From: Opitutales bacterium
Lineage (GTDB): Bacteria; Verrucomicrobiota; Verrucomicrobiia; Opitutales; PNEW01
NCBI GenBank assembly: GCA_965197745.1
Contig: CBDANS010000007.1
Coordinates: 1,920,001-1,984,000, forward strand
Reading direction: 5' to 3'
DNA length: 64,000 bases
This document shows positions 55,327 through 63,380 of the stretch, piece by piece (the first letter of the stretch is position 1; every line of letters begins with the position of its first letter). The notes under the pieces were generated by a model. It was given only the letters and a program-made list of their open reading frames with translations. It was not told where the DNA came from and did not search any database. The translations under genes were made by a program, and so were the position numbers.

Positions 55327-56040
55327 ATGAGCAACTTTGATTTTGAAAATTACTCGGAAGGTGAATGGGAAGATCGCGGTGAAACTGTGTGGAGCGAATT
55401 CGATTGGCAGCAATACCTCCAACAAAACGACCGGGATATCGAGAAGTTTCGTTCCTGTTATGATAAGGTTAAAAAAAAATCTGATCCAGTAACCGAGGCC
55501 GCTTCTTTAATGGGATGGGACCTTGAAGACTGGTCACACATCGATCTTACTTACGATGACCCCAATAATGGCTTGGGTGATATCAGCGGAAAAATGCGTG
55601 AAGATGAAGAATCAGAATATGATGACCTGGATCCCTATACTCTACATAGACACCCTGTTTTCATCGTTACACGAGGGCTTCACCTCGACTTGAAAAAAAA
55701 CTGGGAAGCATACATGAAACAATATCCCCGTGCATTCAGCCCGGATTTATCCTGGCAATACAGCAATGCCATTCATCACGGGGAAATAAATGCAGTCCTT
55801 TCAATCCAGGCAATTGACATGGGAGATTACTCACTCGCGATCTGTCTTCTCAAATCAGCCTTAAGCGCTCTCAATCAGTTGATTAGCATAATTCAGCAGT
55901 TGCCGGATAACAGTCCTGAAGTAGCAGCATATTTTAAAAAAGATTCTTTAAAACGCCTTTTTGATTTACGTGAAGTGTGGTTGCGAATGATGAGCGAGTG
56001 TCGTGAAGAATTGCAGCGTCGTTACCAGGACGGGGAATAG
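55327..56040 (+). CDS. Hypothetical acidic helical protein
   Basis: 237-aa ORF with a W/E/D-rich N-terminus, 11 bp upstream of the next gene. Confidence 0.7.
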   Translation: MSNFDFENYSEGEWEDRGETVWSEFDWQQYLQQNDRDIEKFRSCYDKVKKKSDPVTEAASLMGWDLEDWSHIDLTYDDPNNGLGDISGKMREDEESEYDDLDPYTLHRHPVFIVTRGLHLDLKKNWEAYMKQYPRAFSPDLSWQYSNAIHHGEINAVLSIQAIDMGDYSLAICLLKSALSALNQLISIIQQLPDNSPEVAAYFKKDSLKRLFDLREVWLRMMSECREELQRRYQDGE

Positions 56041-56051
56041 TTGTCTTAGTC

Positions 56052-56867
56052 ATGTCACTCTGGAAAGAAATTCGTCAGCTTTTATCGCGCAATGCGCATC
56101 CTCGACCGACTCTTCGCAAGCAGTTGCGCCTAGCGGCACGAGGTGACCAGACCGCCTACCTCCATCTCGTAGACCATTATTTGAACTTCACCACTGAGTA
56201 CATTTACCTCAATGGGGTAACTCCTCCCTCAGAAGTTTACAGCCAATCGATAAAATTGTTTTTTACTCTCTGGGAACGACTGCCTTTTACTTCACGATTA
56301 TCTGATTTTGAGCGAATGCTTGCACTTTCCCTGATTAAGGAGAAATCAACTTTGGCCATTCCGAAAAGCGCTTTGGACGGGAATATAATGAAGACCTTAC
56401 CCCTTTTTCGATTTTTACTTATTACCCATGAAATGGAAAACTGGCAACATCATTGGATAGGTCTGGCCTGTCGATTGAAAAGAAAAGATTTAGAGGATCG
56501 TCTATTGTCGATGCGTTGTGAATTTTGTGGGATCAATGCTACCTTGCTGGAAGAGGATGAAAAACATTGCCTCGAAGCAATTGTCCGAGATTTGGACTCC
56601 GCTATCGCCCTCAAAGAGCGGGCTGCCCTCTGCAAAAAAATCAAGCGCTATCCCAAAATAAAAAATTTTAAATCTGATTGGCTCAACCTCAGATGTGAGA
56701 TCGTCGAGCTTCGGCAGGAAATTAGATTATCCAATGAGGATCGTGATCGATTTTTAATGGAACTCGGAAATAACCTGCATTCAGCAAAAATACTCCAGCC
56801 TCAGTGGGTTGAACGCATGTTTAACAGCATCCATTTCGAGAGCTTTCCCGATGTCAGAGCTGGCTGA
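56052..56867 (+). CDS. Hypothetical protein resembling a degenerate ECF sigma factor fused to an anti-sigma-like domain
   Basis: ARGDQTAYLHLVDHY (sigma2-like), LPLFRFLLITHEMENW...RLLSMR (sigma4-like) and DLDSAIALKERAAL (zf-HC2-like without ligands). Confidence 0.55.
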   Translation: MSLWKEIRQLLSRNAHPRPTLRKQLRLAARGDQTAYLHLVDHYLNFTTEYIYLNGVTPPSEVYSQSIKLFFTLWERLPFTSRLSDFERMLALSLIKEKSTLAIPKSALDGNIMKTLPLFRFLLITHEMENWQHHWIGLACRLKRKDLEDRLLSMRCEFCGINATLLEEDEKHCLEAIVRDLDSAIALKERAALCKKIKRYPKIKNFKSDWLNLRCEIVELRQEIRLSNEDRDRFLMELGNNLHSAKILQPQWVERMFNSIHFESFPDVRAG

Positions 56868-57027: not shown

Positions 57028-58482
57028 CTAATCGCTACTTTGAAGTGGCTTCAGCTTCCTCGCCATCTCCTGACGCAGGTCTTTAATTTGATTTTCGTAA
57101 TTCTCACGCGTTCTCGCGAGATTTGTGGATAAGTTTTCGTAGATACGCCGGTTCGACTCATGAAGCTGCCGTTCCGCCTCTTTACACAGCGCATCGATTT
57201 TACTTTCTTGCAGCGCTTCTGTTTCCTTTACTTTGGATGACAACTCCCTTCTCAATGTCTGTGCCTGTTGTCTCGCATACTCTTTCAGGGAATCATATCC
57301 GTTATCGCTATTGCCGTGCTTATAAGTCCGGAGTCGGGACATTCCACTTGCTAAATTATCCTGCATGTGCCGGTTCGATTCATGAATACGCTTCTCCGCT
57401 TCTTTACGTAAATCTTCAATTTTAGTGTTTTGTACTTTTCCAGCTTCTATAATACTCGCTGATAATTCTTTTTTTATGACTCGCGTCTGTTCTTTTGTAA
57501 ATTCTCTCAATGCCTCAATCTCTTTATCTTCGAGATTTCGAGATCCCGCGCTCACGGTTGCAATATTTTCCTTTAAGCGGCGCATACTTTCAGCAAGTTT
57601 TCGGGCATAATCATGGCGGATATTTTCTAACTTTTTATCCTGAACACGGTTCATCTGTTCGATGACTTGCAAAAGCTCATTCCGCATTCTCTTATCACCT
57701 GTATCCAACTTTTCCGCCGTTGTATTTCTTAACTGTTCACATTCAGCAATCAACCGATGTTCCGTTTTTTCCAGAATTTCTCGGGTGATTCTCTCGCTGC
57801 GGCTCTCCATCTTTCCAGTAATAGACGAGGCCATTAAATTTAAAGCCCGGTGATTTTCTCGGCGTATGTGATCTTCATGTTCCCTTAAGTCTTTAATCCC
57901 TACCCCATATTCCTCCTGTTTTTTAGAGACAGCGTATACCGCTTGCAATCTTGTATCTAACTCCTTGATCGTTTGATTTATATAAGTGTCTAACCGCTGG
58001 CGCAATTGACTATTGGTCTCTTCCAGGTGCTGGGTTGATTGACGGCGAAAATTATCCACACTGCTGGCAAACATACGCCGCGTAGATTTTGTTATACTCT
58101 CTCTCTCCGTCTGCACTTTTCTGCTAATATCATTAATCTCTCTTCGGCTTTCCAGACGATGTTCGTTTAATCTCAAATTAAATGCTTCCTCAATATTCTC
58201 TACCGCTTCCTCAAATCCATGATGAAAGTGATAGCCCTGGGCCCGCTGATCATCGTCATAGCGCCGTCTCTCCGTCATTATTTGTTTTTCAAAGAGCTGA
58301 ATGGTCCTGGCTGTTGTATAGATCAAGAGAAAAACGGCTATGGCTGCGCCACCCGCCATATAGGCCCAGTTATACCGTATATCAAGTAGAGACATGCTCA
58401 GGAGCACAGGCACCGAGAAGGCAAAAATATACGCCCATGCGGGAAATAAATCCGCTAAATAAACAGAGATCTTCTTATTCAT
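57028..58482 (-). CDS. Hypothetical 2-TM anchored long coiled-coil protein (module copy 2, gene B)
   Basis: Start MNKKIS overlaps the upstream stop by 8 nt; two N-terminal TM helices followed by ~420 aa of E/K/R/Q-rich helix. Confidence 0.8.
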   Translation of the reverse strand: MNKKISVYLADLFPAWAYIFAFSVPVLLSMSLLDIRYNWAYMAGGAAIAVFLLIYTTARTIQLFEKQIMTERRRYDDDQRAQGYHFHHGFEEAVENIEEAFNLRLNEHRLESRREINDISRKVQTERESITKSTRRMFASSVDNFRRQSTQHLEETNSQLRQRLDTYINQTIKELDTRLQAVYAVSKKQEEYGVGIKDLREHEDHIRRENHRALNLMASSITGKMESRSERITREILEKTEHRLIAECEQLRNTTAEKLDTGDKRMRNELLQVIEQMNRVQDKKLENIRHDYARKLAESMRRLKENIATVSAGSRNLEDKEIEALREFTKEQTRVIKKELSASIIEAGKVQNTKIEDLRKEAEKRIHESNRHMQDNLASGMSRLRTYKHGNSDNGYDSLKEYARQQAQTLRRELSSKVKETEALQESKIDALCKEAERQLHESNRRIYENLSTNLARTRENYENQIKDLRQEMARKLKPLQSSD

Positions 58483-59296
58483 TAATATAAAGTATTTTAC
58501 CCAGCAGGAATGGCTTGCAGAGTGACCCATGGGTCACCGCCACCCATTTTTTATTTTCCAATTGTGCTTCTATGGTTATGGCCGTAGTTCCTTGCGAAAT
58601 CTTCAATGAGAATTCAAATCCGGAATGGAGAATCTCATCCTCCTGCTCAAACATATAATCTAATTCTCTTCTTTCGATAAAAAATCGGCTGTCAAATAAT
58701 TCTTCGTCAATTTTGCAACGTAAGTTTCGAATCTTAGAACGATCTTTTGAAAAGCACCACCCGCGCAAACGGGTATTATTTCCGTTGGATTTATAATTCT
58801 CCGGCTCATCTATTTGAAAACAAAATCCGTGATTTACTCGATAGCTTCTCCCATTTTCAGTTTTATTTATAATACTGCTGCCCCCCATCTCTTCGGGGTT
58901 CATAAAAGCGATTTCTACAATGGCGAGCCATTCGTCAGTATCTGCTTTTTGGGCTTCGAGGATAAATGTCGATTTGTCACTGGAGGTGGGTACCGAGACA
59001 TCAAAACCTGAATGGATAATCGCTAATTCTTCTCCGAGCACTAACAATTCGGACCTTTTAATCCCGTAGTTACCATTGTATTCAGAGTCAGATGTTCGGT
59101 AACGGATTGCCGATACTTCGGTTAAGTTTTTATCAAAGCACCACCCGCTAATATTTACTATCCCCTCTTTAAGGGTTGATCTACGCACCCATTCAATCTC
59201 GAAAATGAAATCGTTATCTCCTTCGTACCCGATGCCTTTTGGAGTCATCGGTACATTCGGGCTTAACCTGGGTAACAATATATCTTCACCATGCAT
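58475..59296 (-). CDS. Hypothetical protein with two GWCF...R.EL...HSGF beta-domain repeats (module copy 2, gene A)
   Basis: Internal repeat is visible by eye; paralog of 60458..61264; no signal peptide. Confidence 0.8.
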   Translation of the reverse strand: MHGEDILLPRLSPNVPMTPKGIGYEGDNDFIFEIEWVRRSTLKEGIVNISGWCFDKNLTEVSAIRYRTSDSEYNGNYGIKRSELLVLGEELAIIHSGFDVSVPTSSDKSTFILEAQKADTDEWLAIVEIAFMNPEEMGGSSIINKTENGRSYRVNHGFCFQIDEPENYKSNGNNTRLRGWCFSKDRSKIRNLRCKIDEELFDSRFFIERRELDYMFEQEDEILHSGFEFSLKISQGTTAITIEAQLENKKWVAVTHGSLCKPFLLGKILYINE

Positions 59297-59469
59297 GAGA
59301 GCAACAGATGGAAAACCTCACAGGCTATCATATATAACATTATTATTTCAATGCTTAAATTAAACCATGGATAATTGCACCCTGAGGTCTAAGATAAAAT
59401 AAAGTTATCCTGCCTTTCTTCTCCTTTTTAATCTCTTTTTTGTTATTCTTTTTAAGCCGGTGCTTTTTT

Positions 59470-60465
59470 TCACAGTTGTATTTTTTCTTTTTTTGGAAAG
59501 TTTCGTCTTTTTACTCTTAGCTCCAGTTTTTTTGGAGATTGTTTTTTTCCCGCTTTTTTTAATCTTTGTTTTCTTTTTTTGGCGCTGACTCCGCTCTTTA
59601 ATCTCTTCTCTTCTTTCAGGACCATGTCTTCATTTATTTTTTTCTGCAGCTCATTTAGCTTAGTATTCTGCTCGGCAGTGGCATTATCAATGGCCGTTTG
59701 GATCTCCGCATGAAAAATACTTTCAGATACTTCAAGATCTTTTTTCGACAAAGTCCCTTCAAATTTTTCCTGGGTCCCTGCCAGGAATGATTTTAATTGT
59801 TCGTCATACTTTTGTAGTCTTCTTTTATAAGTTGATTCTAAATCTTTTCGCGTTGAAACCAGTTTCTTTTCCCAGAGTTTACTCATATCATTATTCTGAC
59901 TCTCAATTTTATGCAGGGAAGCATTGTAAACAGATAATGACTTATCTATTGATTTTTGAAATTTTTTTAGGAGTCGGTCCCCATGATTGGTAAGATCTTT
60001 TTTGAATACTGTTTCCTTAATCTGTTTTTTATTGACCTCATAGAGGGATTTTAGCCTTTCCTCCGCGGTGCCGACCATCGCCCCTATTTCATTATGAAGT
60101 ATTTTCCTCGAAGCTTCATTTTCTTCATTAATTTCCCGCTTGAAATCTTTTAATAGGGCTGAATTTACTGAACAATTTTCTTCTAACAGGCGCTTAAATT
60201 CCTTTCCCAGGTTGTATTCAAAATCTCTTAAATTCTCTTTGTATCGACGGTTTAAAGTTTCGAGCTTAGATCCACGCAGCTGTGTTGCTCTGACCGCAGT
60301 AAAACCAATTAAAAATAAAGTTATTAAAGTTGCGCCAACGACCAATACCCAATCAAAGAGGACACCGGTAAACGCCAGGCCGAAAAGAACCGGAACTGAT
60401 GAGGCTAAAGCTATTATCCAATACGGATAACAATCCGCCAATAGAATTGAAATATTCTTATTCAT
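59470..60465 (-). CDS. Hypothetical 2-TM coiled-coil protein with Lys-rich tail (module copy 1, gene B); may extend to 59405 in the -1 frame
   Basis: MNKNISILLADCYPYW aligns with MNKKISVYLADLFPAW of the paralog; the 3' end has many A-tracts. Confidence 0.78.
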   Translation of the reverse strand: MNKNISILLADCYPYWIIALASSVPVLFGLAFTGVLFDWVLVVGATLITLFLIGFTAVRATQLRGSKLETLNRRYKENLRDFEYNLGKEFKRLLEENCSVNSALLKDFKREINEENEASRKILHNEIGAMVGTAEERLKSLYEVNKKQIKETVFKKDLTNHGDRLLKKFQKSIDKSLSVYNASLHKIESQNNDMSKLWEKKLVSTRKDLESTYKRRLQKYDEQLKSFLAGTQEKFEGTLSKKDLEVSESIFHAEIQTAIDNATAEQNTKLNELQKKINEDMVLKEEKRLKSGVSAKKRKQRLKKAGKKQSPKKLELRVKRRNFPKKEKIQL

Positions 60466-61264
60466 AAGTGAAATGGATTCTCCGAGGAAGTAATGGGCGA
60501 CAGAGTGTTCCCTGCACAACGGTCAACCATTGACCATCATCTACATATGCTTCCAGGGTAATGGGAGTTGTTCCCGGTCGCGGGCTTACCGGTATTTCAA
60601 ACCCTGAATGGAGCATGGTATGGTGTTCGCCGAATAAATCTATCAGTTCTATTCTCTCCAATTTATACCTTCCTTCAATATATGCCCGGTCAGTCCTGCA
60701 ACGAATGCTTTTAATTTCCGCTAACCTATCGGTAAAACACCAGCCTCGCAGGAAATAATCAAGGCCATCCGCTTTAATATTTTCTGATTCATAGAGATTA
60801 AAAAGAAAACCATTTTTTACACGATACTGATCTCCATTAGAATCAATACGCTGGTAAAGTTCCTCAATAGCTTCTTTCCCGAGAGAACTACTGAGCGTGC
60901 CTTCTGTCACTTTCAACCACTTCTCACTATTATTTATTTGGGCTTCCAGAGTAAATCGGAATTCACTCTGTTGCGCAGGTACCATGATTTCAAATCCTGA
61001 GCTGAGAATTCCTTTATTCTCTCCGAACTTCGCAGATTCATTTCGTTCGATACCATAACATCCGATAAATTCCCGGTCTTTTATTTTAATGCGGACATTG
61101 CTCACCTCGTCTAAGTTTTCAGAAAAGAACCACCCGCTGATATAAATGTTGTTATAATCCGTGGAAAAGTTGCGAACTTCATCTATATCGAATCGAAAGC
61201 CATTTTTGCCAACAATCCCTTTTACTATTTTAATATGGGGATTCTCTGTGGTTTCTCCCGCCAT
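60458..61264 (-). CDS. Hypothetical protein with two GW.F...ER.E...SGF beta-domain repeats (module copy 1, gene A)
   Basis: Paralog of 58475..59296 with matching C-terminus (G[ST]LC[KR]P). Confidence 0.8.
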   Translation of the reverse strand: MAGETTENPHIKIVKGIVGKNGFRFDIDEVRNFSTDYNNIYISGWFFSENLDEVSNVRIKIKDREFIGCYGIERNESAKFGENKGILSSGFEIMVPAQQSEFRFTLEAQINNSEKWLKVTEGTLSSSLGKEAIEELYQRIDSNGDQYRVKNGFLFNLYESENIKADGLDYFLRGWCFTDRLAEIKSIRCRTDRAYIEGRYKLERIELIDLFGEHHTMLHSGFEIPVSPRPGTTPITLEAYVDDGQWLTVVQGTLCRPLLPRRIHFTYE

Positions 61265-61622
61265 AATCGAGTGAGAATAATATTTAGAAAGTGCAAATAT
61301 TATTATTACTTATAATCTAAGCAATATTATTTTAGGGTAAATGGTTATATCAAAGAGTAACTCCTTGAGACTTTATTTTATATCACTCTCATTTTATTGA
61401 AAAACTTTAGGAGTGATGAACATTGAAATCCGTGGAACTCCAGGTCCAGTTCTCAAAAATTCTGACTGATCTCATCAATTCACTTTACCTTTCCGCGCAC
61501 ATTAGGTTTAACTATCATAAAATATTATTAATTTATGATAGAACCGATAGGGATTTGAGGATATAATACTGAAGACAATGTTTTAGTATTAAGCACGGAT
61601 TTGGAAAGAGAGGCGCATTGAC

Positions 61623-61952
61623 TTGGAAATTCCTAAATTAAAAATTCCAACTGTGAAGTTTGAAAAACTATTGGAATCCTATGCTCCCTATCTGACCAAG
61701 ATTGGATTGGGTGGATTCGCTGCCATGATAGGGATTGGCATCGCAAGTCTTAAGAAATTGGGTTTAACCCTAATCTCAGTCCTGCCATTGTTTTTTCTCG
61801 CCACCTTTTTTGTCTTCATTTGGATTATCGGGCATCATATAGAAAAAGCCTTAGAAAAGAGAAGTGTCTCAGAGATCGATGAAGAGAAAATGTCTGAATT
61901 CAGAAAAAAACTGGAAGCCAGAAATTCTGAAGATGAGTTTGTCGATATATGA
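61623..61952 (+). CDS. Small hypothetical 2-TM membrane protein
   Basis: TTG start after GAGAGG; two hydrophobic segments and an acidic/basic C-terminal tail. Confidence 0.6.
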   Translation: MEIPKLKIPTVKFEKLLESYAPYLTKIGLGGFAAMIGIGIASLKKLGLTLISVLPLFFLATFFVFIWIIGHHIEKALEKRSVSEIDEEKMSEFRKKLEARNSEDEFVDI

Positions 61953-62166
61953 GGGATGACCGATGCTTCAGGTTGTAAGGATGAATACCATCTATTTGGC
62001 ATGCGCTCCTCTCTCAGCCCGCATCAAGTCGGGGAAGACTATGAGAATGATTGTCAGATCAAATCCATCTCCTCCACAGCAATAACTTGCTGGAGAGAAG
62101 GTGTGGTGGATCGCTTCGTTTGCCTCATATTCACCCAAATAATCCTGGTGCTTATACTTGCCGCTC

Positions 62167-63203
62167 TTACAGCGGCAATTGAACGAGCCGGTTGGTGTGT
62201 GAGGATTGGAGACTGGCGAGGCACATTTCAATGGCCATGCGGCCGTCTTTCCCTGTAACCGAAGGTTCACGGTCTGCACGGATACAGTCGATATACTCTT
62301 GTAGCATGGCCGCATAGGCCTCAAGTCGAACAGGATCTGCTGGATTCGTAATTGTCAATGCCGGTTGCTCCCAAATTGTCTCCCAGCCCTTATTCGTTGA
62401 TAAATTCAGTTTGCCTAAACCATCGAGATTGAGAAGTCCTTTCTCTCCCATAATCTGCACGCTCATACGGGTTCCCGGGAAAGTGTTACCTGGCATTTCA
62501 CCCGAAGTCCACATTTGGGCAACCCCTCCATTATCGAAATTTATTTCAGCCATTGCACTCATATCAGAGACTTGATGCTCACCATAACTCTGCACCTTGC
62601 CATATATACTGATCGGCTCACTGCCCATAAGATAGCGTATGAGGTCAAAGGTGTGAGAGCAGAGCCCCATATACATGCCCCCTCCCGCTGGATCGAGATA
62701 GAATGGCCGTGTTGCTATTTCCTCCAATGACGCGTTGAGTGGGACGTGGCAAATAATTAATAGCTGGCAAACTTTGCCGATACGGTCTTCATCCAATATT
62801 TTTCGTGCCTGTTTAAAGACTCCACGGAATCGCCAGTGTTTTACCTGCATTAGCTTAATTCCGGCATTGCTACAGCCTTCAATCATAGCGTCACACTGCT
62901 TCAGGTCGGGTGCCATGGGCTTCTCAACGAGGACATGCTTCCCCGCGGCAGCGGCTATCAAGGTCTGCTCGTGATGAACCTGTTCCGGTGAAGTAATGAC
63001 AATCGCCTTGATATCTTTCCGTGAAATTAACCTTTCAATTGACTCCTCGTGATCGATTCCATATCTTTCGCAAGTTGCGGAGATCTTTTACCACAGGCCA
63101 CCGCGACGAGACGCGCCCTATTCGTGTATTTAGCTATGCATTCCGAGTATGTGCGGCCCATAAAACCCGCGCCTATCATGCCAACCCCTATTTCGTCAGT
63201 CAT
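62167..63203 (-). pseudogene. Gfo/Idh/MocA family oxidoreductase split by a 1-bp frameshift
   Basis: The N-terminal Rossmann part (VGMIGAGFMG, ATG at 63203) and the C-terminal part (GIDHEESIERLI...GKHVLVEKPMA) are in different frames. They join if one base is added near 63062 (AKD-Y-GID). Confidence 0.85.
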
Positions 63204-63380
63204 GAGAAAGGAGTAATGGGCTAAAGGTTCAATGGCCAACAAATTTTTTCCTCTATCGCGCTCGTCATGAATCCCCTCGGAGTAATGGTATTTTATCTCC
63301 AGACTATTGCTTGAGCTGCTTCATTCTTATCTAAAATAAGTGTAGGAAAATATTTTATTTTCATCTAAGTTCTTAGTGTT

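What the first reader, a model, noticed from the sequence alone, without database searches (positions are those of the whole stretch)
57028..61264. Tandemly duplicated, translationally coupled two-gene module: double beta-domain protein plus 2-TM coiled-coil protein
Seen: A-B-A'-B' on the minus strand. Each A (268/273 aa, no signal peptide) has two repeats of F.F.I(D/E)...GW(C/F)F...IR...G.Y.I(E/K)R.E...HSGF(E/D)...LEA...W and ends G(S/T)LC(K/R)P. Each B starts MNK.IS..LAD..P.W, has two TM helices and then a long coiled coil. Both junctions keep the same 8-nt ATGAATAA stop/start overlap (58475-82, 60458-65) despite strong protein divergence, implying selection for coupled, stoichiometric expression. 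The A repeat resembles Ig-like GW...R.D...SGF modules I recall on glycosyltransferases and cell-wall proteins. Inference: an undescribed membrane-anchored scaffold/ruler system (polysaccharide chain-length control, cytoskeletal/polar scaffold or defence). A small 2-TM gene lies divergently at 61623.
Basis: partly seen in the sequence, partly recalled or inferred. Interest (0 to 1): 0.75.

Follow-up and report, generated by a model that had tools for sequence, protein, structure and literature searches.

The report
Membrane-anchored helical arm with Ig-like adaptor
One small family of Opitutales bacteria keeps two old copies of a coupled gene pair, a soluble double Ig-like protein and a membrane-anchored long helical protein, which probably form a scaffold on the inner face of the cell membrane whose job is still unknown.

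Summary
A1 (268 aa), B1 (331 aa), A2 (273 aa) and B2 (484 aa) lie head to tail on the minus strand, and both A/B junctions have the 8-nt ATGAATAA overlap.

- **Conservation:** the overlap is kept at 8 of 8 junctions in the 4 genomes of this family.
- **A:** two Ig-like (E-set) beta-sandwich domains. The domain has no Pfam model. Elsewhere it sits inside large multi-module GT2/GT4/methyltransferase enzymes, in one locus beside Wzm/Wzt.
- **B:** a short N-terminus, a 2-TM hairpin, a conserved juxtamembrane helix, then a fast-evolving helical arm of variable length. Its hydrophobic period peaks at 3.67, not 3.5. B1 alone ends in a polybasic tail.
- **Distribution:** B's N-terminus and the divergent small membrane gene S occur only in this family. 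B is in 4 of 401 Opitutales genomes. S is in the same 4 plus one weak hit.
- **Binding:** a complex prediction supports docking of A1's C-terminal domain on B1's juxtamembrane helix (score 0.61, best control 0.00).

Best reading: a lineage-specific, enzyme-free scaffold on the cytoplasmic face of the membrane. A link to polysaccharide assembly is plausible but unproven, and defence is unlikely. The scan found the same module before in relatives. Interest is moderate.

The parts
61653..61952 (+). S: small membrane protein, 99 aa from GTG (ORF listing gives TTG 61623). It has one strong and one weaker Gly/Ala-rich hydrophobic segment, then a very conserved acidic helical tail. It is divergent from A1.
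   Evidence: 61-65% identical to orthologues. Found only in family f1: 4 of 401 genomes, plus one weak hit at 6e-4. PspB matches are below cut-off.
60458..61264 (-). A1: soluble protein of two Ig-like domains. N-domain about 60860-61264, C-domain plus tail 60461-60859.
   Evidence: The domain model has pLDDT 83. Fold searches give generic E-set/FN3 matches. No Pfam or NCBIfam family.
60458..60465 (-). 8-nt stop/start overlap ATGAATAA between A1 and B1
   Evidence: Conserved in 4 of 4 genomes.
59470..60465 (-). B1: membrane hairpin followed by a helical arm and a polybasic tail
   Evidence: The N-terminal 95 aa are found only in family f1.
60283..60426 (-). B1 two-TM hairpin (about residues 14-61), with a loop of only 2-6 residues between the helices
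   Evidence: Hydropathy and alignment.
60202..60270 (-). B1 juxtamembrane helix (residues 66-88), the predicted docking site for the A1 C-terminal domain
   Evidence: Interface list. Invariant R74, R80 and Y84 lie here.
59473..59652 (-). B1 polybasic C-terminal tail (last 60 aa, net charge +17)
   Evidence: The orthologues' tails are net +20 and +22, while B2 tails are +1 to +6.
58475..59296 (-). A2: paralogue of A1, with two Ig-like domains
58475..58482 (-). 8-nt stop/start overlap ATGAATAA between A2 and B2
57028..58482 (-). B2: membrane hairpin (about residues 12-64) followed by a 420-residue amphipathic helical arm, without a basic tail
   Evidence: Weak Apolipoprotein match of 20.5 bits against a cut-off of 90.
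57031..57510 (-). Internal repeat in the B2 arm (two units, 41% identical over 54 residues)
   Evidence: E 1e-14.

Best explanation
S, A1-B1 and A2-B2 form a five-gene cluster specific to one lineage. It encodes an enzyme-free scaffold on the cytoplasmic face of the inner membrane.

**How the parts fit.**
- Each B inserts as a hairpin with both ends in the cytoplasm.
- B's short N-terminus and the conserved helix just after TM2 form a docking site for the C-terminal Ig-like domain and tail of its upstream A.
- The 8-nt overlap couples translation of the two partners, so they are made together.
- The N-terminal Ig-like domain of A stays free to hold a ligand.
- The long amphipathic arm of B projects from, or lies along, the membrane. 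It is built of repeats and varies in length between strains.
- In B1 the arm ends in a polybasic tail that can hold a polyanion.

**Most likely role.** The A domain otherwise sits beside the polymerase modules of polysaccharide enzymes, in one locus seen here an ABC-transporter (Wzm/Wzt) one. So the cluster most likely organises a membrane-proximal assembly process, with envelope glycan assembly the leading candidate. In layout it resembles WbdD recruiting WbdA.

**Shown:** gene anatomy, paralogy, distribution, domain kinship, fold class.
**Predicted:** A-B docking.
**Inferred:** topology, free N-domain, ligand, and role.
For: - **Anatomy and overlap:**. The overlap is kept at 8 of 8 junctions in 4 genomes.
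- **Synteny:** the order S, A1, B1, A2, B2 is the same in two relatives read in full.
- **Co-distribution:** full-length A, B's N-terminus and S all occur in 4 of 4 family genomes. B's N-terminus was found in none of the 397 other Opitutales genomes searched. S has one weak hit there.
- **Docking:** complex prediction of B1 with A1 gave score 0.61 (runs 0.58, 0.61, 0.63) against 0.00 for the best of 3 controls. That mark was reached by 116 of 157 solved complexes and 2 of 215 mismatched pairs. My own alignments were used, so these counts hold only roughly. The runs share at least 91% of contacts, and partner pLDDT is at least 70.
- **Interface:** it uses B1 residues 3-11 and 66-88. Six of those 18 residues are invariant, against 20 of 331 over the whole protein. 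Both segments flank the hairpin, which fits an in-in topology.
- **Domain kinship:** 135 representatives at E<=1e-3. Of the 74 scanned, 25 have GT2 and 2 have RgpF. A 1940-aa protein with 4 A domains and 4 GT2 modules lies beside GT4 genes and Wzm/Wzt-C. A 1310-aa GT4-A-GT2-GT2 protein lies next to a 236-aa protein that carries an A domain in its C-terminal half. Similar ~240-aa representatives have an N-terminal coiled-coil-looking segment before the A domain, by eye only.
- **Variable arm:** a 49-residue repeat unit is present in one strain and absent from another whose B1 is 93% identical.
- **B1 tails:** net charge +17 to +22 in three genomes.
- **Purifying selection** between close strains: dN/dS 0.27-0.50.
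Against: - No glycan gene lies in or beside the cluster. The flanks are fumarase, a GFO-type oxidoreductase, succinate dehydrogenase and two widespread unknowns.
- The genome's own Wzm/Wzt locus is on another contig. Its enzymes carry no A domain, and the whole genome has only 2 A matches.
- B has no enzyme domain at the end of its arm, unlike known rulers.
- The fold matches are generic: best Z 7.6 and TM 0.41-0.50. They do not show sugar binding.
- A's interface residues are no more conserved than the rest of A: 5 of 20 invariant against 66 of 268.
- The docking is a model's confidence, not a measurement. Only the A1-B1 pair was run.
- Some profile hits are secreted cell-wall hydrolases with Big_7 domains, so the wider domain family is not purely cytoplasmic.
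Confidence: 0.4

Rival explanations
1. A polarity or division landmark of the TipN kind. B is a membrane-anchored helical landmark that marks a cell site, and A is its client adaptor. There is no link to glycans.
For: [quoted passage not shown] Such landmarks have narrow phylogenetic ranges (PMC4085708, passages read). B is restricted to one family. The housekeeping neighbourhood is syntenic.
Against: No sequence kinship was tested. The arm's periodicity is 3.67, not heptad. No division, flagellar or ParA genes lie nearby. This reading does not explain why the adaptor is a domain otherwise tied to polysaccharide enzymes.
Confidence: 0.18
2. A lipid-surface or membrane-to-nucleoid tether of the MLDS/apolipoprotein kind. 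The 11/3 amphipathic arm lies on a lipid surface and the B1 lysine-rich tail binds DNA or another polyanion.
For: Periodicity of 3.67 at z up to 13.9. A weak Apolipoprotein match in B2, E 4e-4. The polybasic tail is conserved in charge but not in sequence. MLDS combines an apolipoprotein motif with a lysine-rich C-terminus that binds DNA without sequence specificity (PMC5504291, passages read).
Against: The Pfam match is 20.5 bits against a cut-off of 90. B2 has no basic tail. B has a true two-helix hairpin rather than only surface helices. The role of A is left unexplained.
Confidence: 0.15
3. A membrane-stress or membrane-remodelling module, with S acting like PspB and the B arms as amphipathic membrane-binding helices.
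For: S matches PspB models weakly over its TM and following helix: E 0.003 in Pfam, E 0.008 in NCBIfam. The arms are amphipathic helices.
Against: All PspB scores are below cut-off: 18 against 25.6 bits, and 16.4 against 51.7 bits. No PspA or PspC family was found among the 10 neighbouring proteins scanned.
Confidence: 0.07
4. A conflict system, either anti-phage defence with a 2-TM pore-forming effector (SLATT-like or Zorya-like) or a secreted Inc-like hairpin effector.
For: B1's N-terminus matches SLATT_1 weakly, E 0.021. The B arms match ZorA tails weakly, E 3e-4 to 0.04. The bilobed hydrophobic hairpin plus helical tail resembles chlamydial Inc proteins (my recall; an earlier scan note also raised and rejected this).
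Against: SLATT scores 14.8 bits against a cut-off of 41, in one of the two B proteins only. The ZorA hits cover only the tail, not the MotA-like part. The cluster sits at one syntenic housekeeping site in all 4 family genomes. No injectisome secretin scores over cut-off: best 102 bits against 238. A and S have no PADLOC hit.
Confidence: 0.05

Closest known systems
Unnamed Ig-like accessory domain of multi-module GT2/GT4/methyltransferase polysaccharide synthases (motif GWC..R..YG..R.D/E..SGF..LEA..W)
   Same: The motif and profile are shared, and so is the Ig-like fold. The domain occurs as N-terminal tandem arrays of 2-5 copies (P0009, P0011) or between other modules and the GT2 modules. In 16 of the 140 A-family proteins held, an S..W[K/R]..P motif lies upstream of it.
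   Different: A is free-standing, has exactly two copies and no enzyme module, and is coupled to a membrane protein. It was found in this form in one family only.
WbdD/WbdA and WbbB coiled-coil 'molecular ruler' systems of ABC-transporter-dependent O-antigen assembly
   Same: Both have a membrane-associated end with a partner-recruitment site next to the membrane, plus a long helical spacer whose length varies (PMC11231755, passages read). The recruited partner here carries a domain typical of such polymerases.
   Different: B's distal end carries no kinase, methyltransferase or glycosyltransferase. The anchor is a 2-TM hairpin at the N-terminus, not a C-terminal amphipathic helix. The periodicity is 3.67. 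The cluster is not in a glycan gene cluster.
TipN (Caulobacter new-pole landmark)
   Same: Two N-terminal TM regions, a large C-terminal helical region, and a narrow phylogenetic range (PMC4085708).
   Different: No sequence comparison was made. B is shorter, is duplicated, and has a translationally coupled Ig-like partner.
MLDS of Rhodococcus (apolipoprotein-motif lipid-droplet protein with a lysine-rich DNA-binding tail)
   Same: Amphipathic helices with 11/3-type periodicity plus a polybasic C-terminal tail in B1 (PMC5504291).
   Different: B has a transmembrane hairpin, B2 has no tail, and no significant sequence match was found.

Membership tests
GT-associated Ig-like accessory domain (unnamed, no Pfam model) | Conserved motif GWC / R / R.[DE] / SGF / W and a reciprocal profile match | tested here: met
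   In a 30-sequence alignment G39, R53 and G86 are invariant, and W40, C41, R69, F87 and W111 are at least 90% conserved. The profile search gives E down to 4.7e-35 for GT2 proteins.
GT-associated Ig-like accessory domain (unnamed, no Pfam model) | Ig-like beta-sandwich fold | tested here: met
   AF2 model with pLDDT 83 and pTM 0.78, mostly beta strands with two short helices. Best matches are E-set, FN3 and CBM21-type sandwiches, Z 6-7.6. These matches are generic only.
GT-associated Ig-like accessory domain (unnamed, no Pfam model) | Fused to a glycosyltransferase or methyltransferase module | tested here: not met
   A1 and A2 have no Pfam or NCBIfam domain and are 268 and 273 aa long.
Wzt C-terminal carbohydrate-binding domain (PF14524) | Match to the family profile | tested here: not met
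   No Pfam hit at E<=0.1. hhalign of the A-domain alignment against a Wzt_C domain from L032 gives probability 0.2.
WbdD/WbbB-type coiled-coil ruler | [quoted passage not shown] | tested here: not met
   No enzyme family in B1 or B2.
WbdD/WbbB-type coiled-coil ruler | Encoded in a glycan cluster with wzm/wzt | tested here: not met
   The flanks are housekeeping genes. The genome's Wzt_C gene is on contig 6, while the window is on contig 7.
WbdD/WbbB-type coiled-coil ruler | Extended heptad coiled coil | tested here: inconclusive
   Helix-like periodicity is strong at 3.67 (z 5.8-13.9) and weaker at 3.5 (z 1.8-4.5). No dedicated coiled-coil predictor or oligomer model was run.
Polysaccharide co-polymerase (Wzz/PCP) | Large periplasmic domain between the two TM helices | tested here: not met
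   The loop between the two hydrophobic segments is 2-6 residues.
TipN | [quoted passage not shown] | tested here: met
   This holds for architecture only (PMC4085708).
TipN | Sequence homology to TipN | not tested
SLATT 2-TM effector domain (NF033634) | Score over the family cut-off | tested here: not met
   B1 scores 14.8 bits against 41, and B2 has no hit.
ZorA (Zorya) | MotA/ExbB/TolQ membrane domain | tested here: not met
   The weak hits (E 3e-4 to 0.04) align only to profile positions 227-586, the tail. B has two TM helices only.
PspB (for S) | Score over the family cut-off | tested here: not met
   18 against 25.6 bits in Pfam, and 16.4 against 51.7 bits in NCBIfam.
Apolipoprotein A1/A4/E (PF01442) | Score over the gathering cut-off | tested here: not met
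   B2 scores 20.5 bits against 90. The 11/3 periodicity is nevertheless present.
Chlamydial Inc-type effector | A type III secretion apparatus in the genome | tested here: not met
   The best SctC-model match is 102 bits against a cut-off of 238, in a genome that is 92% complete. The bilobed hairpin itself is present.

The most novel reading that the evidence does not exclude
The cluster is a trans-acting, enzyme-free ruler for glycan assembly at the cytoplasmic face of the membrane. In this reading the accessory Ig-like domain that other Opitutales carry inside giant polymerases has been released as a separate adaptor, A. A docks on hairpin-anchored arms of two different lengths: about 210 residues in B1 and about 420 in B2. 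Those arms grow and shrink by whole repeat units between strains. Together they would set two chain-length classes for the single-module glycosyltransferases and the Wzm/Wzt exporter encoded elsewhere in the genome.
Probability: 0.15. Interest if true: 0.75.

Novelty: new variant of a known kind. Interest (0 to 1): 0.5.

Why it matters
If A and B do bind as predicted, this would be a cleanly separable pair: a membrane anchor with a helical spacer, and an Ig-like adaptor. The adaptor's domain is widespread in polysaccharide-building enzymes but has no Pfam or NCBIfam model. The 2024 passages I read on Klebsiella O7 mention an unstudied carbohydrate-binding-type domain in a similar enzyme (PMC11231755). 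I could not test whether it is the same domain.

The free-standing A would be a convenient handle for finding out what that domain binds. That bears on how ABC-transporter-dependent glycan machines are organised and how they measure chain length.

The system itself is narrow: 4 genomes of one Opitutales family among the 401 searched. Its direct reach is therefore small.

Tried and rejected
- **Family scans.** Pfam, NCBIfam and PADLOC scans of A1, B1, A2, B2, S and neighbours gave nothing over cut-off for the five cluster genes.
- **Word-based homologue searches.**
  - A1: 6 proteins, all close.
  - B1 N-terminus: 2 proteins.
  - B2 arm: itself only.
- **ESM Atlas.** Only unnamed clusters for A, at scores 0.93-0.94. 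For B's N-terminus the scores were 0.83-0.85, under the level of a lead.
- **PDB sequence search with the A-domain profile.** No hit below E 0.65.
- **Whole-A1 fold.** With 7 sequences the model was poor (pLDDT 58) and was not used for fold search.
- **Solved relative covering the A domain.** A PDB search with a methyltransferase-A-GT2-GT2 protein (P0053) matched only its enzyme modules.
- **Wzt-C kinship.** Rejected.
- **Wzt CBM in the fold lists.** Not seen among the rows shown. This does not exclude it.
- **Promoter and terminator scan.** 13 promoter-like sites against 12.8 expected and 7 terminator-like sites against 4.2 expected, so it gives no evidence on operon structure.
- **Sequencing runs.** No RNA holder was listed and no reads were laid.
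- **The 271-aa and 237-aa neighbours.** Considered as cluster members and rejected. The 271-aa protein occurs in 58 of 401 genomes across families that lack A-B. In one such genome the pair sits beside SufS/SufE-like genes (my reading of the translations, no family scan).
- **Earlier scan notes.** A place look-up and a word look-up gave nothing.
- **Not run.** One literature query failed on syntax and was not repeated.

Full report
**What is there.**
The minus strand between 57028 and 61264 carries four ORFs in the order A1 (60458-61264, 268 aa), B1 (59470-60465, 331 aa), A2 (58475-59296, 273 aa) and B2 (57028-58482, 484 aa).
- At both A/B junctions the sequence is ATGAATAA, so the B start codon lies 8 nt inside the end of A.
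- A1 and A2 are 38% identical over their whole length (E 6e-60).
- B1 and B2 are 25% identical (E 1e-22), with most of the likeness in the first 90 residues.
- Each A is an internal duplication: the two halves of A1 are 38% identical (E 1e-22).
- A has no hydrophobic segment. Each B has two adjacent hydrophobic segments within residues 12-64, separated by 2-6 residues.
- A small gene S lies divergently upstream of A1. By comparison with its orthologues it starts at the GTG at 61653 and gives 99 aa.

**Is it real and conserved?**
The window lies in a 4.45-Mb genome that is 92% complete. By the titles of its relatives' records it belongs to Opitutales, Verrucomicrobiota. Two relatives read in full have the same order S, A1, B1, A2, B2 between the same flanking genes.
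- **Overlap:** in the four genomes of the family, all 8 junctions keep ATGA[A/G]TAA. The one variant changes B's second residue from N to S but leaves A's final E unchanged.
- **Divergence from the L003 relative:** A1 55%, A2 58%, S 66%, B1 35% and B2 47% identical. The flanking fumarase fragment is 77% and the 237-aa unknown 69%.
- **Selection between two close strains (dS 0.035-0.075):** dN/dS is 0.27-0.50 for the four genes. All are under purifying selection, but loosely in the B1 arm (0.57).

**Distribution.**
- A profile of full-length A matched 36 of 401 Opitutales genomes at E<=1e-5. The full two-domain match occurred only in the 4 genomes of the window's own family. In the other 32 genomes the matches were single domains, mostly inside open frames of 730-1942 aa, with some shorter (240-560 aa).
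- A profile of B's N-terminal 95 residues matched 4 of 401 genomes, the same four, with two copies each.
- S matched the same four, plus one weak hit at E 6e-4.
- The own genome has only the two A copies.
- The neighbouring 271-aa protein is in 58 of 401 genomes from several families without A-B. It is a flank, not a member.
- Word-based searches of 5.8 billion proteins found 6 close A homologues, 2 B1 N-terminus matches, and only B2 itself for the B2 arm.

The unit is thus a five-gene cluster confined, among the genomes searched, to one family of two genera.

**What A is.**
Pfam and NCBIfam give nothing. A profile search of 1.84 billion representatives found 135 proteins at E<=1e-3, 26 at E<=1e-10 and 6 at E<=1e-30. 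I scanned the 74 best against Pfam:

| Pfam result | Proteins |
|---|---|
| GT2 domains, often with GT4 or methyltransferase modules | 25 |
| RgpF | 2 |
| Methyltransferase only | 1 |
| Secreted cell-wall hydrolases with Big_7 | 3 |
| Odd chimera (P0008) | 1 |
| No family | 42 |

- The domain occurs as N-terminal tandem arrays of up to five copies before the enzyme modules, or between other modules and GT2 modules. In 16 of the 140 A-family proteins held, a motif S..W[K/R]..P lies upstream of it.
- In one Opitutales genome, a 1940-aa protein with four such domains and four GT2 modules lies beside GT4 genes, Wzm and a Wzt with the Wzt_C domain.
- In another, a 1310-aa GT4-A-GT2-GT2 protein lies beside a 236-aa protein with an A domain in its C-terminal half, a methyltransferase and sugar-nucleotide genes.
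It gave an AF2 model with pLDDT 83.
- Fold searches find only generic Ig-like sandwiches: the sulfite oxidase C-terminal domain and GH13 N-domains (Foldseek E 3e-4, TM 0.41); GH13 E-set domains at Z 7.6; CBM21 at Z 6.4; FN3 at Z about 6.
- The domain is not a Wzt_C domain.

The fold does not tell what the domain binds.

**What B is.**
After the hairpin comes a conserved helix. Invariant L63, R74, R80, Y84 and F90 lie in it. Then comes a long, charged region poor in Pro and Gly.
- **Periodicity:** the hydrophobic periodicity peaks at 3.67 residues in all six B proteins tested (z 5.8-13.9) and is weaker at 3.5 (z 1.8-4.5). This is the 11/3 pattern of amphipathic helices of the apolipoprotein type or of non-heptad bundles. 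It fits the sub-threshold Apolipoprotein match.
- **Repeats:** B2 has two units 41% identical. B1 of one strain has a 49-residue unit that a strain with 93% identical B1 lacks (375 against 320 aa).
- **Arm length:** if fully extended as a helix (0.15 nm per residue, my figure), the arms would reach about 31 nm (B1) and 63 nm (B2). This is an upper bound by inference.
- **Tail:** B1, but not B2, ends in a tail of net charge +17 to +22 over 60 residues. The tail is conserved in composition, not in sequence.

**Do A and B bind?**
A complex prediction of B1 with A1, each with its alignment, gave 0.58, 0.61 and 0.63, against 0.00 for all three controls. The runs share at least 91% of contacts and partner pLDDT is at least 70. 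That mark was reached by 116 of 157 solved complexes and 2 of 215 mismatched pairs. Because my own alignments were used, these counts hold only roughly.
- The interface joins B1 residues 3-11 and 66-88 to A1 residues 151, 192 and 230-268.
- Both B segments flank the hairpin, so the model is consistent with both B termini, and A, being cytoplasmic.
- Six of the 18 B interface residues are invariant, against 20 of 331 overall.
- On the A side there is no enrichment: 5 of 20 against 66 of 268.
- No fused A-B protein was found: 0 of the 140 A-family proteins held carry B's N-terminus.

This supports binding but does not show it.

**Function.**
The evidence fixes a layout: hairpin anchor, docking site next to the membrane, Ig-like adaptor with one free domain, and a modular helical arm. 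This is the layout described for WbdD, which has a membrane-associated end that recruits the WbdA polymerase and a coiled-coil ruler. It is also that of single-chain versions such as WbbB and Klebsiella O7 ORF6 (PMC11231755, passages read). The adaptor's domain comes from that enzyme world. That makes glycan assembly the leading candidate.

There are real objections:
- No enzyme sits at the far end of B.
- The cluster is not near glycan genes.
- The genome's own Wzm/Wzt locus, with single-module GT2 and GT4 enzymes, a sulfotransferase and a double methyltransferase, is on another contig and has no A domain.

Rival readings:
- **TipN-like landmark.** The architecture is the same (PMC4085708).
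- **MLDS-like tether.** Amphipathic helices plus a lysine-rich tail (PMC5504291).
- **Stress module.** S is weakly PspB-like.
- **Conflict system.** This is the weakest. The SLATT and ZorA matches are below cut-off or cover tails only. The locus is syntenic and housekeeping-flanked in all family members. No injectisome secretin passes its cut-off.

**Earlier notes.**
The scan had already flagged the same module in two windows of one other genome. Follow-up agents there reached much the same reading (e1-2421546 and e1-2714776). I saw these after my own analysis. They are not independent evidence. One raised the Inc-like rival, which I then tested in part.

**Verdict.**
This is a lineage-restricted, unnamed membrane scaffold whose adaptor belongs to a widespread but unannotated Ig-like domain family of polysaccharide enzymes. 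I rate it a new variant of a known kind (membrane-anchored helical scaffolds with recruited partners), of moderate interest.

Noticed in passing
window 62167-63242 (-): The GFO/IDH/MocA-type oxidoreductase next to S is split into a 71-aa N-terminal ORF and a 264-aa C-terminal ORF in different frames. The frame changes near 63030-63060. The orthologue in L003 is one intact 345-aa gene. This is either a frameshift (pseudogene) or an assembly error.
   Followed up: partly
window 55327-56040 (+) and 56052-56867 (+): An adjacent pair of unknown proteins (237 aa and 271 aa, no Pfam or NCBIfam family) is conserved as a pair in relatives, and in a different family beside SufS/SufE-like genes (by eye from the translations). 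The 271-aa protein is in 58 of 401 Opitutales genomes. It looks like an unannotated conserved Opitutales gene pair.
   Followed up: partly
P0008 (representative protein): A 185-aa metagenome protein joins an N-terminal phage-integrase SAM-like segment (Pfam E 3.8e-8) to the C-terminal domain of an A2 orthologue. It is either a misassembly or an integrase insertion that truncated A2.
   Followed up: no
L031 9305-10015 (-) and 10005-13937 (-); also G334:C3, G382:C12: In another Opitutales family, a ~240-260-aa ORF with a C-terminal A domain lies within about 2-3 kb of a ~1310-1350-aa ORF that also has an A domain. In the one locus read (L031) the two are adjacent, and the large ORF is a GT4-A-GT2-GT2 enzyme. 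Similar ~240-aa representatives end in a W-C-x-P motif like A's L-C-[KR]-P tail.
   Followed up: partly
window 58001-62000: G+C drops to 0.38-0.39 over the cluster, against 0.42-0.48 around it. This may simply reflect the Lys/Glu/Asn-rich arms. I did not test it as a sign of foreign origin.
   Followed up: no
G000:C6:290000-329999 (L044, L045): The genome's own ABC-transporter-type glycan locus holds Wzm, Wzt with Wzt_C, GDP-mannose dehydratase, single-module GT2 and GT4 enzymes, a sulfotransferase and a 506-aa double methyltransferase. No long coiled-coil protein was recognised among the ORFs scanned. Two ORFs of 192 and 203 aa have no family.
   Followed up: partly
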